From Escherchia phage Stokescottia: a stretch of 64,000 nt of DNA. The notes under the pieces were generated by a model. The model saw only the letters and a program-made list of their open reading frames with translations, did not search any database and was not told the origin of the DNA. This document shows, one piece after another, positions 18,647 to 30,026 of the stretch (position 1 is the stretch's first letter; each line of letters opens with the position of its first letter). Where the stretch lies: sequence record OR896820.1. One strand, 5' to 3'. The position numbers and the translations under genes were made by a program.

Positions 18647-19090
18647 ATGGAAGAGAATATTTTAGATGTTTTGCGTAGAGCTTTGCAGGATTCTAAGTTT
18701 AATGGTTCTGATAAAGAAGTCGCCAAAAGCTATCAGACCATAATTGGGGATCTTCAGCGTATTGATAAAGATTTCATCACTTCTGAACAATTTGTGTCTT
18801 ATCTCAAAGCTCAACTAAAAAGCATTAACCAGATGAAAGCTAAACTTCATGGTCAAGATCTCGATAGTTATAGCCTACAGTCTGCTCAGTATGAATACAT
18901 TCTAAATAAGTGGTTGCAGGAGTATCTGCCCCCTCAGTTATCTGATACTGAGATTCGTAAATACTTTGCAGAATTAGTTAAGCTAAACCCTGGAATTACA
19001 AAGGGTATGCTGATGAAAGCGATTAAGGAAGAATTTCCTGGGCGTTATGATGGTGGTACTGCTGCTCAGATTGCTGGCGAATTTAATTAA
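18647..19090 (+). CDS. GatB/YqeY domain protein
   Basis: C-terminal KGMLMKAIKEEFPGRYDGGTAAQIAGE matches YqeY-like domain. Confidence 0.65.
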   Translation: MEENILDVLRRALQDSKFNGSDKEVAKSYQTIIGDLQRIDKDFITSEQFVSYLKAQLKSINQMKAKLHGQDLDSYSLQSAQYEYILNKWLQEYLPPQLSDTEIRKYFAELVKLNPGITKGMLMKAIKEEFPGRYDGGTAAQIAGEFN

Positions 19091-19098
19091 AAATTCAT

Positions 19099-19127
19099 TT
19101 GCTAAATGCTTATAAATTCTGTATAAT
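19099..19127 (+). promoter_or_regulatory. sigma70-type early promoter driving non-coding region
   Basis: TTGCTA 19099-19104, TATAAT 19122-19127; no ORF downstream. Confidence 0.6.
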
Positions 19128-19140
19128 ATATTCATAAATT

Positions 19141-19545
19141 AGGGAACAGCGAGCCGATTACGCTGAGTGCAGAATCCCAACCGGAGCGCATTGAATAGAG
19201 TCGGTGGGTTAGTTGTAAAACTAGTACACAGGGGGCGGCAATTCCGGTTAGTGGCTAGAACGTGTAAAATGAGGCGTCTGAAACCTCTCCCCTAAACTCT
19301 TCTCTAATTTATAAATAGTGGGGTGTGGAAATCACTTATGTAGTAACACTGCCGTCCTAGTATAATTGGTATTATCAAGCCGTAACTGGTGGAAGATGTA
19401 GGTTCGAATCCTACGGTCGGTAAGAACTGGATAACTGGTGCTTTTAACGTAAAAGCTTCCGAGGTTAGTTGCGCACTGCCTAAACCACGCGGTAGTTGGT
19501 TCCAGACTAACCAACCAGTCTGCTGAATAGTTTTATTACGATTTA
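19141..19545 (+). ncRNA. candidate structured non-coding RNA(s), unassigned
   Basis: Promoter-driven ~400 nt without ORF; contains T-arm-like GTAGGTTCGAATCCTAC and a terminal hairpin GTTGGTT-CCAGACT-AACCAAC followed by T-rich tract. Confidence 0.3.
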
Positions 19546-23632: not shown

Positions 23633-23710
23633 GGTTCTCAAGCTCATATGGTATGAGCACCCGGCTCATAACCGGAAGGTACGTAGGTTCGAATCCTCGG
23701 GGAGCCACCA
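23633..23710 (+). tRNA. tRNA with CAT anticodon (Met or Ile-lysidine type)
   Basis: Acceptor GGTTCTC/GGGAGCC, loop CTCATAA; T-stem only 3 clean pairs; discriminator A, CCA. Confidence 0.55.
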
Positions 23711-26550: not shown

Positions 26551-26652
26551 AATTCTGTGTAGAGTTAAGTAAACCGGTAGCCAATCAGCTATCATTGCTG
26601 ACATCGAATTCAGCCACAGATACCATTTTCATTAATAACTGAGGAAACAAGC

Positions 26653-27298: not shown

Positions 27299-27420
27299 TA
27301 AAATTTCAGTGCAGAACACGGAGCTAGCAATTCGGAAGTGCTGACTCATGATAAGCTGCCTATGTACTTGCGAAGCGGTCGTGTCCAAGACTCGGACTCT
27401 TGCACTGAAAACAATCAAAC

Positions 27421-27540
27421 ATTCTAGCGTGGTTGATGGGGAAACCAGCTTGGCGAGGGCAGAAGCTCGTTCGATTCGAGTGAAAGAATGGTTCTCGTAA
27501 GTCCGCACAAGTGATAACAGGTTCGAGTCCTGTCTAGAAT
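27421..27540 (+). ncRNA. tRNA-like element with ~45-nt internal insertion (no encoded CCA)
   Basis: Perfect 7-bp acceptor ATTCTAG/CTAGAAT, D-arm TGGT...ACCA, T-arm ACAGG-TTCGAGT-CCTGT, 120 nt with internal hairpins. Confidence 0.35.
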
Positions 27541-27690
27541 GACACTATAAAGTTTACTTATTATGTAGGTTCCGGTAGATCGGCGGGTCTATTCTGGCAT
27601 TTAAGAGAGGTCTCGCAAACTTCTTTGTCAGCCGTGGGGTTGGTAGCCTCCAGGCGGCCTACACAATAAGTAAATTTATTAAAAATTCAT

Positions 27691-28344: not shown

Positions 28345-28363
28345 ATTTCAAGAAAAAACGCAG

Positions 28364-28392
28364 TTGCTTGATGCTTAATTTCTTGTTATAAT
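28364..28392 (+). promoter_or_regulatory. sigma70-type promoter driving leader RNA and tRNA block
   Basis: TTGCTT 28364-28369, TATAAT 28387-28392. Confidence 0.6.
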
Positions 28393-28629
28393 ATTTATAT
28401 AAATTGATGAGGAGAAATCCTCATCATAGTTCACTAAGGTATTAGCTCGACCTAGGACTGGCTGCCAAAAAGCACGATCCCCATGATTCGGGAGAAGTTC
28501 TAGATTGGTCCACTAGATTCAGCGGCAACTGAATAGTGTATTGGGTTTGCGAGATGACGCAGTTCCTTCCGCTCGAAGCGAAGGTGCTGTAGTTACGCCG
28601 AGCTAATAGCCTTAGTAAACTAAAGAATT

Positions 28630-28708
28630 TGGGGAATGGGTCTGCATGGAGTGGACACCTCGCTTGCACCGAGGACATCAGAACGGTTCGATTCCGTTAT
28701 TCTCCACC
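28630..28708 (+). tRNA. tRNA-Ala (anticodon TGC)
   Basis: Acceptor GGGGAAT/ATTCTCC with G3-U70, loop CTTGCAC, discriminator A, CCA. Confidence 0.7.
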
Positions 28709-28713
28709 AAATA

Positions 28714-28790
28714 CGCGTGATTGATGGAATTGGCATACATACCGTCCTTAGAAGTCGGGTTTTGAGGGTTCGAATCCCTTGTCACGCACC
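28714..28790 (+). tRNA. tRNA-Leu (anticodon TAG), type-I-like scaffold
   Basis: Acceptor GCGTGAT/GTCACGC, same scaffold as 24214..24290, loop CTTAGAA, discriminator A, CCA. Confidence 0.6.
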
Positions 28791-28902
28791 AAATTTGATG
28801 GTCAGAGTAAATTAAACCTACTATCTCGGTTGAGCTGTTTTAATGGGTTCGAATCCCAGCGAGGCGTAACTGCCTGGTGTGATAGAGGCATCATCTTATT
28901 AT
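28791..28902 (+). ncRNA. unassigned RNA element with T-arm-like hairpin
   Basis: ATGGG-TTCGAAT-CCCA motif with no pairing acceptor stem or CCA; adjacent hairpin AGGC-GTAACT-GCCT. Confidence 0.25.
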
Positions 28903-28993
28903 TGGAAGAGCAAATCGAATTGGCGACGAAAACCGCTTGGAAAGTGGCTGACTGGTAAAACGGCTTGAGAGTTCAAATCTCTCCTCTTCCGCC
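28903..28993 (+). tRNA. tRNA-Ser (anticodon GGA), long variable arm
   Basis: Acceptor GGAAGAG/CTCTTCC, loop TTGGAAA, 19-nt variable arm, discriminator G, CCA. Confidence 0.7.
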
Positions 28994-29013
28994 AAACACT
29001 TGAGGTAATAATA

Positions 29014-29464: not shown

Positions 29465-29665
29465 ATTAACTATAAGGAAATCTTATGAGCAAAACAGTTA
29501 CTGTAACAATGAAGGATGGTAAAAAATTTAAAGCATGTCTTCATGAAACAGATAAGGGATGGATGGCTTATTTGCCACACCTAGATTCCACCAGGTACGG
29601 AATGACCCAACGTGAAGCTATTGTTGATGCTTTAAATGAGGCTTCTGCTGGTTTATAAAAATTCT

Positions 29666-29796
29666 TGAAGTATGCCGGAATTGGTAGACGGGGCTGCCTA
29701 AAAGGTTTATAGAGAACATCCACTCTCTACAACATACCTCATAAAGCGGCTGAGATAAATGGTCTATCTCGTGAAGGTTCAAGTCCTTCTGCTTCT
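29666..29796 (+). ncRNA. tRNA-like element with ~40-nt insertion in the anticodon region (no encoded CCA)
   Basis: Acceptor TGAAGTA/TGCTTCT (6 pairs), D-arm CCG-GAATTGGTAGA-CGG, helix GCTGC/GCGGC enclosing 48 nt, hairpin GAGATA-AATGGTC-TATCTC, T-arm GAAGG-TTCAAGT-CCTTC. Confidence 0.35.
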
Positions 29797-30026
29797 TGAT
29801 ACATCTATGGCTCAAAGTGTAACGGTGCTATTTGATGCTCTTAGTAAGACTTCCCCGACATGCGTTCGGGAGTAAGCTGCTAAGGCTAGAGTAGAAGAGT
29901 TTCTGAGAGCCGCCACAATTGAAAATTCGTACTCGTCTTGAGCTGCGTGCAATAGGAGATAACTTGATTAGTATTCTAGAACATGCTAATTGAGGAAGGT
30001 TTCGCTAACCCTGCGAGTTTTCAATT

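What the first reader, a model, noticed from the sequence alone, without database searches (positions are those of the whole stretch)
28393..28629. Long structured leader between a promoter and tRNA-Ala
About 220 nt separate the promoter at 28364-28392 from tRNA-Ala (28630-28708), with no plausible ORF on the plus strand. The leader begins GAGGAGAAATCCTC, which weakly resembles a tRNA acceptor start and made me test a tmRNA-like fold. It may be a processed small RNA released with the tRNA.
Basis: seen in the sequence. Interest (0 to 1): 0.45.

Follow-up and report, generated by a model that had tools for sequence, protein, structure and literature searches.

The report
T5 phage stable RNA "RNA2H"
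The "leader" is the T5-family small stable RNA called RNA2H, a conserved, tightly folded non-coding RNA that sits in the phage's tRNA cluster; it was catalogued long ago, but its fold had not been described and its function is still unknown.

Summary
About 238 nt separate a T5-type early promoter from tRNA-Ala, they contain no credible ORF, and they fold far better than shuffled sequence (z = -5.3).

The window comes from a T5-like phage. The stretch is the ortholog (95-97% identical) of "rna2H / RNA 2H, stable RNA with unknown functions", annotated in the T5, BF23 and DT57C GenBank records between promoter P13b and tRNA-Ala. The annotated mature RNA maps to 28440-28611.

It is not tmRNA-like or tRNA-like, and no Rfam family matches it.

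Homologs occur in five clades of enterobacterial Demerecviridae: Tequintavirus/Epseptimavirus, Sugarlandvirus, Enterobacter phage KKP_3711, one metagenomic relative and Pectobacterium phage My1. Across them, covariation supports:
- a 22-bp terminal stem;
- two variable hairpins;
- a pseudoknot that is 100% paired, with 4 of 5 pairs compensated;
- a second long-range loop contact;
- invariant unpaired strands (CAAAA..CAC and AGUGUA).

The element is an independent module, because it is not always next to tRNA-Ala. It is dispensable in the laboratory.

The likely route is excision from the tRNA precursor by a cut in the terminal stem, followed by action in trans. The annotated ends fit RNase III. 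An anti-defence role is plausible because the region is T5's "anti-defence island", but it is unproven.

The parts
28354..28418 (+). Early promoter cassette, ortholog of T5/BF23 'promoter P13b'. -35 TTGCTT is at 28364-28369 and -10 TATAAT at 28387-28392. The probable +1 is near A28399, inferred from homology with other T5 promoters.
   Evidence: 97% identical to the BF23 P13b feature. Aligned with at least 10 paralogous cassettes in the window that share AAAAA..TTGCTT-17-TATAAT..ATAAATTGATGAG(A)GGAG. Annotated as P13b in T5 and BF23.
28405..28426 (+). 5' leader hairpin: 9 bp (28405-28413 with 28418-28426) and a GAAA loop. It sequesters the Shine-Dalgarno-like GAGGAG (28409-28414) of the promoter cassette. 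It belongs to the promoter module, not to RNA2H.
   Evidence: MFE fold. Absent where a CDS precedes the element directly (GRNsp8, 1-23, Kp150049, STP-SP9, S132). KKP_3711 has a hairpin of different sequence (GAUGGUA...UACCAUC) at the same place. No ATG follows the SD-like sequence, unlike the paralogous cassettes.
28428..28621 (+). The whole RNA2H element including its full terminal stem P1 (the precursor form), 194 nt.
   Evidence: Covariance model R1 scores it 212 bits, E = 4.5e-65. It is alignable end to end with homologs from five clades.
28440..28611 (+). Mature RNA2H (172 nt), with ends as annotated in BF23 and T5. The 5' end is U28440 and the 3' end is ...A-G-C-C28611.
   Evidence: The BF23 rna2H feature maps to 28440-28611 at 95.3% identity. 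Annotation text. The ends come from the database records and were not tested here.
28428..28449 (+). P1, 5' strand (AGUUCACUAAGGUAUUAGCUCG).
   Evidence: 21 pairs, 99.7% of cells paired, 10 pairs with changes on both sides.
28599..28621 (+). P1, 3' strand (CGAGCUAAUA-G-CCUUAGUAAACU). G28609 is an invariant bulge, and G-C-C-U (28609-28612) is invariant in all clades.
28455..28459 (+). Pseudoknot PK1, 5' strand 'a' (GGACU).
   Evidence: Pairs with 28507-28511. 100% paired in 34 sequences and 4 of 5 pairs compensated (GGACU:AGUCC, GAGUC:GACUC, GAGCC:GGCUC, GAACC:GGUUC, GAGUC:GGCUC).
28507..28511 (+). Pseudoknot PK1, 3' strand 'c' (GGUCC). It lies in the loop of hairpin b:b'.
   Evidence: The window has the U:G variant of the last pair.
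28463..28466 (+). Long-range contact K, 5' strand (UGCC).
   Evidence: Pairs with GGCA in the P4 loop. Three fully complementary versions exist: UGCC:GGCA (24 sequences), UACC:GGUA (KKP_3711) and UUGC:GCAA (My1), when the loop is anchored at its 3' end. Overall 26 of 34 sequences have 4/4 pairs and 8 of 34 have 3/4.
28467..28475 (+). A-rich unpaired strand AAAAAGCAC. C28466-AAAA and CAC (28473-28475) are invariant in all five clades.
28476..28494 (+). P3, a variable hairpin. It is 19 nt here and 37-45 nt with an extra helix in Epseptimavirus, Sugarlandvirus and KKP_3711.
   Evidence: Base of the stem: 94.9% paired, 3 of 4 pairs compensated. Alignments.
28499..28517 (+). Hairpin b:b' (UCUAG 28499-28503 with CUAGA 28513-28517). 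Its 9-nt loop carries strand c.
   Evidence: 91% paired, 5 of 5 pairs with changes on both sides. Versions are UCUAG:CUAGA, UCUGAU:AUCAGA (SB13), CGGAG:CUCCG (Sugarlandvirus, KKP_3711) and CUGGA:UCCAG (My1).
28518..28533 (+). P4 hairpin (UUCAG / CUGAA) with loop CGGCAA (28523-28528). GGCA (28524-28527) is the 3' strand of contact K, and the final AA is invariant.
   Evidence: Stems differ between clades (CGC:GCG, GGU:ACC, CA-GGG:CCCUG), read by eye. The model alignment is one base out of register for Sugarlandvirus.
28535..28540 (+). Invariant unpaired AGUGUA, the start of the joining strand between P4 and P5 (28534-28548).
   Evidence: Invariant in all clade representatives.
28549..28598 (+). 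P5, a long variable hairpin with a conserved asymmetric internal loop near its base. Its last base directly abuts the P1 3' strand.
   Evidence: 15 pairs, 94-100% paired, 12 with changes on both sides. Tequintavirus and Epseptimavirus carry different sequences on the same scaffold.
28631..28709 (+). tRNA-Ala(UGC), followed by tRNA-Leu(UAG) at 28715-28791. These are downstream members of the same transcription unit (context).

Best explanation
The region encodes RNA2H, a small stable non-coding RNA of T5-like phages.

Shown here:
- The window is a T5-like genome, and 28440-28611 is the ortholog of the annotated rna2H gene.
- It lies downstream of a member of the T5 early-promoter family.
- It is an independently conserved RNA module. 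A 22-bp terminal stem (P1) closes a compact core.
- In the core, strand a (GGACU) pairs with the loop of hairpin b:b' to form a pseudoknot.
- The P4 loop (GGCA) pairs with UGCC just upstream of an invariant A-rich strand.
- AGUGUA and CAAAA..CAC stay unpaired and invariant.
- Two peripheral hairpins (P3 and P5) vary freely.

Inferred:
- E. coli RNA polymerase starts near A28399 and transcribes the leader hairpin, RNA2H, tRNA-Ala and tRNA-Leu as one precursor.
- RNA2H is cut out within P1. The annotated ends (5' U28440, 3' C28611) are offset by two base pairs across a roughly two-turn duplex. That is the signature of RNase III.
- The part of P1 outside the mature ends also covaries, which makes sense only if the duplex itself is needed.
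- The remaining 19-nt stub upstream of tRNA-Ala would then be removed by RNase P.
- The released RNA acts in trans through its folded core, most likely by binding a protein. It behaves as an accessory factor rather than an essential one.
- Because it sits in the tRNA-rich 'anti-defence island' of T5, a counter-defence or host-takeover role is the leading guess.

The confidence given (0.8) applies to identity, structure and modularity. I put the RNase III step at about 0.55 and the trans-acting counter-defence role at about 0.3.
For: Identity:
- The region is present in 426 phage records. The best matches are Tequintavirus, with 100% identity over 28393-28630 in phage BUCT632.
- It is 97% identical to T5 st0 across the region.
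- rna2H is annotated as 'stable RNA with unknown functions' in T5, BF23 and DT57C, and maps to 28440-28611.

Promoter family.

Structure:
- Fold z-score -5.3.
- On 34 sequences, 95.8% of cells are paired against 31-45% in slid controls. The covariation score is 0.414 against at most 0.125. 40 of 59 pairs have changes on both sides (similar figures on a MAFFT alignment not fitted to the structure).
- PK1 is 100% paired with 4 of 5 pairs compensated.
- Contact K exists in three complementary versions.
- The nested alternative to PK1 fails outside the T5/Epseptimavirus clade.

Family breadth:
- Sugarlandvirus, KKP_3711 and metagenomic L081.
- My1 at 56 bits, E about 1e-16.

Independent module:
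- It is followed by a CDS in GreteKellenberger, STP-SP9, 26175III, KKP_3711 and My1, and by tRNA-Leu in L081.

Dispensable:
- The T5 deletion mutants delta29191-32442 and delta30661-38625 are described as viable; that their intervals cover the rna2H position is my coordinate inference (PMC11464382; coordinates).
- Phage FFH1 has a natural 120-nt internal deletion.

Context:
- The tRNA-rich region of T5 carries several counter-defence determinants (bioRxiv 10.1101/2023.03.15.532788; PMC11464382).
Against: - The mature ends and the label 'stable RNA' come from GenBank annotation. I could not read the primary experiments, and no paper in the library mentions rna2H.
- RNase III cleavage is inferred from geometry alone. 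RNase P plus 3' trimming could produce the same ends, because U28440:A28608 followed by G-C-C looks like a tRNA acceptor end lacking A76.
- No binding partner, target or phenotype is known. Neighbouring ORFs give no functional hint.
- The anti-defence idea rests on genomic neighbourhood only. The fragments tested in the cited papers pointed to tRNAs and proteins, not to this RNA.
- Much of the core is nearly invariant within the largest clade, so the covariation rests on a handful of deep lineages. Counts are cells, not independent events.
- Alignment A6 was fitted to the nested part of the model.
Confidence: 0.8

Rival explanations
1. It is only a cis-acting leader. On this reading it is a processing or folding platform, or a regulator, for the downstream tRNA-Ala/tRNA-Leu transcript, with no life of its own after cleavage.
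For: - It lies directly between the promoter and tRNA-Ala in Tequintavirus, many Epseptimavirus and Sugarlandvirus, with only 9 nt between P1 and the tRNA.
- A long stem next to tRNAs resembles the processing stems of rRNA operons (established knowledge).
Against: - In GreteKellenberger, STP-SP9, 26175III, KKP_3711 and My1 a CDS follows it. In L081 tRNA-Leu follows.
- No terminator-like hairpin or other expression platform lies between it and the tRNA on the plus strand.
- A processing stem alone does not explain the two pseudoknot contacts and the invariant unpaired strands.
- The database records call it a stable RNA.
Confidence: 0.1
2. It is a tRNA-like mimic that is matured like a tRNA rather than by RNase III. 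The inner 10 bp of P1 stacked on P5 would imitate an acceptor/T-arm helix. RNase P would cut 5' of U28440, exonucleases would trim to ...G-C-C, and the CCA-adding enzyme would add A.
For: - The annotated ends place U28440 opposite A28608, followed by G-C-C, which matches positions 73-75 of a tRNA.
- G-C-C-U and the opposing A-G-G are invariant in all clades, while the rest of P1 covaries freely.
- P5 abuts the P1 3' strand with no linker, as the T stem abuts the acceptor stem (by eye).
- Three other T5/BF23 small RNAs are annotated as 'tRNA-like'.
Against: - By eye there is no T-loop, D-arm or anticodon arm. ARAGORN and the Rfam tRNA and tmRNA models do not match.
- The 5' leader is paired with the 3' trailer for 12 more covarying base pairs, a context that normally hinders RNase P (established knowledge) and favours a double-strand-specific nuclease.
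- A76 is not encoded.
Confidence: 0.2
3. The folded core is catalytic or ligand-sensing, that is, a self-cleaving ribozyme or an orphan aptamer, rather than a protein-binding RNA.
For: A double-pseudoknotted core with short invariant unpaired strands and freely variable peripheral stems is the usual conservation pattern of small ribozymes and riboswitch aptamers (comparison from general knowledge).
Against: - No ribozyme or riboswitch family of Rfam 15 matches any clade, even at E up to 5-10.
- There is no expression platform.
- The annotated ends lie inside a regular duplex, which is not where known self-cleaving motifs cut.
Confidence: 0.1
4. It is protein-coding on the minus strand. The 78-aa ORF at 28442-28678 is called 'hypothetical protein' in a few phage records.
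For: The ORF exists. Several automatic annotations place a hypothetical protein over the region.
Against: - The ORF overlaps tRNA-Ala.
- Homologs differ by 1, 23 and 26 nt (lengths 193-220), which shifts the frame.
- Substitutions follow base-pairing, not codons.
- All surrounding genes are on the plus strand.
Confidence: 0.01
5. It is a decaying relic, for example of tRNA genes or an intron, with no present function.
For: - It is dispensable in the laboratory, and FFH1 has lost its middle.
- The tRNA region of T5-like phages is full of rearrangements and pseudo-tRNAs.
Against: - It is conserved across five clades whose flanks are rearranged, with compensatory changes in every helix and invariant unpaired strands.
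- It is present in about 500 sequenced phages.
Confidence: 0.03

Closest known systems
rna2H / 'RNA 2H' of bacteriophages T5, BF23 and DT57C (GenBank AY692264, NC_042564, KM979354)
   Same: Same gene. It has the same position (promoter P13b, then rna2H, then tRNA-Ala and tRNA-Leu), 95-97% identity and the same predicted fold.
   Different: Nothing of substance. Unlike T5 and BF23, the window phage lacks the tRNA-Val just upstream of P13b. The records give no structure or function.
T4 species 1 and species 2 RNAs (rnaC, rnaD)
   Same: They are small stable RNAs of unknown function encoded inside a phage tRNA cluster and co-transcribed with tRNAs. From memory, species 1 RNA is cleaved by RNase III in vitro.
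   Different: They are not homologous: model R1 finds nothing there beyond short hairpins. rnaC carries a canonical T-arm sequence, whereas RNA2H has none.
RNase III processing stems of rRNA operons and the T7 early transcript (R1.1-type sites)
   Same: A duplex of about two turns formed by sequences flanking the mature RNA, with tRNAs nearby in the same transcript. The annotated ends are staggered by 2 bp.
   Different: Cleavage was not tested here. P1 carries an invariant bulged G and invariant AGG/CCU at the presumed cut site, which is not a general feature of RNase III sites.
tmRNA
   Same: It lies in a tRNA context and is a structured RNA with pseudoknots and paired 5' and 3' ends.
   Different: ARAGORN and Rfam (tmRNA, permuted tmRNA) do not detect it. 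By eye it has no T-arm, no alanine-type acceptor, no encoded CCA and no tag reading frame.
Double-pseudoknotted small ribozymes and aptamers (HDV-like, glmS, twister)
   Same: The general architecture is a compact core held by two long-range pairings, with short invariant unpaired strands and variable peripheral stems.
   Different: There is no sequence or structure match to any such Rfam family. No cleavage site or ligand is known. This is a resemblance of style only.

Membership tests
T5-family stable RNA RNA2H | Sequence orthology to the annotated rna2H feature | tested here: met
   95.3% identity over all 172 nt of BF23 rna2H, mapping to 28440-28611. 97% identity to T5 st0 across the region.
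T5-family stable RNA RNA2H | Position downstream of promoter P13b and upstream of tRNA-Ala and tRNA-Leu in the tRNA gene region | tested here: met
   P13b ortholog at 28354-28418, tRNA-Ala at 28631 and tRNA-Leu at 28715. This is the same order as in T5 and BF23.
T5-family stable RNA RNA2H | Accumulates as a discrete stable RNA in infected cells | not testable with these tools
   Stated only in the notes of the GenBank records. No paper in the library mentions it.
tmRNA | tRNA-like domain (acceptor stem with 3' CCA, T-arm) plus a tag-peptide reading frame | tested here: not met
   ARAGORN reports no tmRNA in the window. Rfam tmRNA hits are 15-17-nt fragments outside the element at 10-11 bits, against a 47-bit threshold.
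tRNA / tRNA-like RNA | Cloverleaf with D, anticodon and T arms | tested here: not met
   No ARAGORN or Rfam tRNA-clan hit within 28393-28630. Only the acceptor-like end (U:A, then G-C-C) resembles a tRNA (by eye).
RNase III substrate | Roughly 20 bp or more of near-continuous duplex | tested here: met
   P1 has 21 pairs over 22-23 positions, with one mismatch and one bulge. It is 99.7% paired across homologs, including the part outside the mature ends.
RNase III substrate | Cleavage by RNase III leaving 2-nt 3' overhangs | not testable with these tools
   The annotated ends (28440 and 28611) are staggered by two base pairs plus the bulged G. This is consistent but not a test.
Riboswitch / attenuator leader | Aptamer coupled to an expression platform (terminator or SD-sequestering helix) upstream of the regulated gene | tested here: not met
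   There is no plus-strand terminator-like site in 28393-28630. No Rfam riboswitch matches. The downstream gene is a tRNA, or varies between phages.
Any Rfam 15 family | Score at or near a family's gathering threshold | tested here: not met
   The window and three other clades were searched at E up to 5-10. Only weak hits far below each family's gathering score overlap the region, and none recurs between clades.

The most novel reading that the evidence does not exclude
RNA2H is the founding member of an undescribed class of phage structured RNAs. On this reading, a double-pseudoknotted effector is excised from the tRNA operon and acts in trans on a host factor. It might work as a decoy or inhibitor of a defence or RNA-metabolism protein, or as a small ribozyme. 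That would make it the first RNA-only, non-tRNA determinant of the T5 anti-defence island.
Probability: 0.25. Interest if true: 0.8.

Novelty: already known. Interest (0 to 1): 0.45.

Why it matters
The element itself is not a discovery, because T5-family GenBank records have long listed it as a stable RNA. It is, however, an orphan. It has no Rfam family, no papers in the searchable library, no published structure that I could find and no function.

This analysis gives it a covariation-supported fold with two long-range contacts and a defined set of invariant unpaired nucleotides. It also shows a distribution across at least five clades and about 500 genomes of enterobacterial Demerecviridae, and none in bacterial genomes or in a Vibrio relative.

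T5's tRNA region is now known to be a hotspot of counter-defence functions, including tRNA-Lys against PARIS, tRNA-Tyr and Rad against retrons, and unassigned activities. A strongly conserved yet dispensable structured RNA there is an obvious untested candidate. The model provides exact mutations to test it.

Tried and rejected
- tmRNA or tRNA identity: ARAGORN and Rfam are negative.
- Any Rfam family, for the window and for Sugarlandvirus, KKP_3711, L081 and My1 homologs at permissive E-values: nothing consistent.
- Coding potential on either strand: rejected.
- Homology to T5 RNA2, which the name suggests: the local alignment score of 14 is below the shuffle mean of 15.3.
- Homology to T4 rnaC and rnaD: none.
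- Paralogs in the window: the extra BLAST 'places' are promoter cassettes only. The model finds no second copy.
- Host mimicry: no match in 5,426 E. coli genomes at E up to 10.
- Bacterial genomes: a motif scan gave 20 hits, about my rough chance expectation of roughly 18 (not a tool result). None was confirmed by the model at the matched site.
- Metagenomes: 46 motif hits, of which 12 are true homologs (all T5-like, Sugarland-like or L081). The rest are chance, including a repetitive, plant-like sequence (judged by eye) at 14.5 bits.
- IMG/VR: only close relatives plus chance coding hits.
- Vibrio T5-like phage pVp-1: no homolog even with filters off.
- Nested helix CUAGGACU:AGUUCUAG, chosen by single-sequence folding: not conserved outside the T5/Epseptimavirus clade, so replaced by the pseudoknot.
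- Small hairpin GCU..AGC in the A-rich strand, present in the MFE fold: by eye it cannot form in Sugarlandvirus.
- Neighbouring ORFs as functional clues: they match only PHROG families of unknown function.

Full report
**1. What is at the coordinates**

- TTGCTT (28364-28369), 17 nt and TATAAT (28387-28392) are followed by about 238 nt without a gene call.
- tRNA-Ala(UGC) then begins at 28631 and runs to 28709 (ARAGORN). Rfam scores it at 36 bits when the region is searched on its own.
- The longest plus-strand ORF inside is 21 aa with a TTG start.
- The RNA folds to -85.7 kcal/mol, against -58.4 +/- 5.1 for 200 dinucleotide shuffles. That is z = -5.3, and no shuffle does as well.

**2. Where the window comes from and what the element is called**

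BLAST against phage genomes finds the region in 426 records.
- The hits are almost all Salmonella and Escherichia T5-like phages, at identities from 100% down to about 73%.
- In T5 st0 (AY692264) the homologous stretch is annotated misc_RNA 'rna2H / RNA2H'. It lies between 'promoter P13b' and tRNA-Ala, and the alignment is about 97% identical.
DT57C carries the same feature.
- Mapping the BF23 features onto the window gives P13b at 28354-28418 and rna2H at 28440-28611.
- The thing is therefore already catalogued. However, a full-text search for 'rna2H' found no relevant paper, and Rfam 15 has no family for it.

**3. The promoter and the 'GAGGAGAAATCCTC' start**

The extra BLAST 'places' per genome are not copies of the RNA.
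- They are paralogous T5 early-promoter cassettes.
- At least ten in this window share AAAAA..TTGCTT-17-TATAAT..ATAAATTGATGAG(A)GGAG, normally followed by an ATG.
- Here the same cassette is followed by no start codon.
- Instead, the Shine-Dalgarno-like GAGGAG is paired into a 9-bp hairpin with a GAAA loop (28405-28426).
- The hairpin travels with the promoter. It is missing in Epseptimavirus genomes where a CDS runs straight into the element.
- In KKP_3711 it is replaced by a hairpin of different sequence at the same place.
- It is not an acceptor-like start, and nothing supports a tmRNA-like fold.

**4. The family**

I collected unique variants from annotated phage records, IMG/VR and metagenomes.
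- The T5/Epseptimavirus group shows a telling pattern. The core is almost invariant, while two hairpins (P3 and P5) are replaced wholesale by different sequences that still form hairpins.
- Looking upstream of tRNA-Ala in Klebsiella Sugarlandvirus phages revealed a diverged homolog behind a similar promoter.
- Enterobacter phage KKP_3711 and one metagenomic contig (L081) form another branch.
- A covariance model built from these (R1) scores them at 176-236 bits.
- It also finds a distant member in Pectobacterium phage My1, of a different subfamily, at 56 bits and E about 1e-16.
- It finds nothing in Vibrio phage pVp-1, in the T4 tRNA cluster or in the chance hits of motif scans of metagenomes and bacterial genomes.
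- E. coli genomes hold no match.
- The family therefore appears restricted to Demerecviridae of Enterobacterales.

**5. The structure**

Pair counts on an unfitted MAFFT alignment of 28 sequences and on the model alignment of 34 sequences agree.

Overall figures on the 34 sequences:
- 95.8% of cells are paired, against 31-45% when partners are slid.
- The covariation score is 0.414, against at most 0.125.
- 40 of 59 pairs have changes on both sides.

Individual elements:
- P1, the 22-bp terminal stem, is 99.7% paired with 10 compensated pairs. For example, UAUUAGCUCG/CGAGCUAAUA in T5 becomes AAUUAAUCUG/CGGAUUAAUU in Sugarlandvirus and UCUCUUAUC/GAUAAGAGA in My1.
- Single-sequence folding pairs CUAGGACU with AGUUCUAG. 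That helix does not exist outside the T5/Epseptimavirus clade.
- What is conserved instead is GGACU (28455-28459) pairing with GGUCC (28507-28511). It is 100% paired with 4 of 5 positions compensated.
- That 3' strand lies in the loop of a hairpin b:b' (28499-28503 with 28513-28517) which itself covaries. The versions are UCUAG:CUAGA, UCUGAU:AUCAGA in SB13, CGGAG:CUCCG and CUGGA:UCCAG. The two helices therefore form a pseudoknot.
- A second long-range contact joins UGCC (28463-28466) to GGCA in the P4 loop (28524-28527).
- With the loop anchored at its 3' end, this contact appears as UGCC:GGCA, UACC:GGUA and UUGC:GCAA. 26 of 34 sequences have all four pairs. The My1 register was set by hand.
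- Nucleotides invariant in all clade representatives cluster in unpaired strands: GG, CAAAA, CAC and AGUGUA. They also occur at the base of P1: AGUU, AGG and the bulged G followed by CCU.

**6. How it probably works**

Shown:
- It is a conserved, independently folding RNA module behind an early promoter. Its neighbours vary between phages.
- A CDS follows it in GreteKellenberger, STP-SP9, 26175III, KKP_3711 and My1. tRNA-Leu follows it in L081.

Inferred:
- It is excised from the tRNA precursor within P1. The annotated ends are offset by two base pairs on a two-turn duplex.
- The 12 bp outside the mature ends still covary. Together these point to RNase III.
- A tRNA-style maturation (RNase P, trimming to G-C-C, then addition of A) is the main alternative. 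It would explain why AGG/G-CCU is invariant.

Function:
- The function is unknown.
- The element is dispensable. The viable T5 deletion mutants delta29191-32442 and delta30661-38625 span the rna2H coordinates (PMC11464382; coordinates). Phage FFH1 has lost 120 nt of it.
- The surrounding tRNA-rich region has been called an anti-defence island, and some of its activities are still unassigned (bioRxiv 10.1101/2023.03.15.532788).
- My best guess, at roughly 30%, is therefore a trans-acting, protein-binding accessory RNA with a counter-defence or host-takeover role. A purely cis role, catalysis and ligand sensing are less likely but not excluded.

**7. Comparison with what is known, and verdict**

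- It is a member, in fact an ortholog, of T5 RNA2H.
- It is analogous, but not homologous, to the T4 species 1 and 2 RNAs.
- It shows no significant similarity to T5 RNA2 despite the name.
- It is not a tmRNA, a tRNA, a riboswitch or a member of any Rfam family.
- As a finding it is 'already known' but uncharacterised.
- The value added here is the fold, the family limits and precise targets for experiments.

Noticed in passing
window 28904-28994 (+): This stretch is 100% identical to BF23 'tRNA-Ser 2' (tRNAS2), a long-variable-arm tRNA-like gene ending in CCA. Neither ARAGORN nor Rfam reported it in the window, so the tRNA count of 21 is an underestimate.
   Followed up: partly
window 26553-26625, 27420-27543, 27563-27665, 29664-29808, 29809-29915, 29920-30025 (+): These are orthologs of the six other small RNAs annotated in BF23 and T5: rna3, rna2, rnaIV, rna1, rnaI and rnaIII. 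The records label them 'tRNA-like' or 'stable RNA with unknown functions'. All are orphan RNAs like RNA2H, and none was analysed here.
   Followed up: no
window ~19080-19140 (+), then up to 19351-19422: Another T5-type early-promoter cassette has a leader with no Shine-Dalgarno sequence and no ATG. About 200 nt of non-coding sequence follow it, then a tRNA seen only by Rfam (19351-19422, 35.5 bits). This may be a second promoter-driven non-coding RNA.
   Followed up: no
window 19351-19422 and 23633-23707 (+): These tRNA-model hits are found by Rfam but not by ARAGORN. Conversely, tRNA-Ala at 28631 is missed by the default whole-window Rfam scan.
   Followed up: no
window 28345-28353 (junction after tRNA-Lys): T5, BF23 and most relatives have tRNA-Val between tRNA-Lys and P13b. 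This phage goes straight from tRNA-Lys to the promoter, so tRNA-Val has been lost here.
   Followed up: partly
L014 (phage FFH1) 601-712: RNA2H carries a natural internal deletion of about 120 nt, running from the end of the P1 5' strand to inside P5. The promoter, both P1 strands and tRNA-Ala remain intact.
   Followed up: partly
window 28453-28459, 28499-28503, 28513-28517: In the T5/Epseptimavirus clade three copies of the palindrome CUAG can pair with one another. A nested alternative fold therefore competes with the pseudoknot. Whether this reflects a conformational switch or coincidence is unexplained.
   Followed up: partly
window 28405-28426 (-): The leader hairpin followed by a T-rich run scores as a terminator-like site on the minus strand, where no genes are known nearby.
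   Followed up: no
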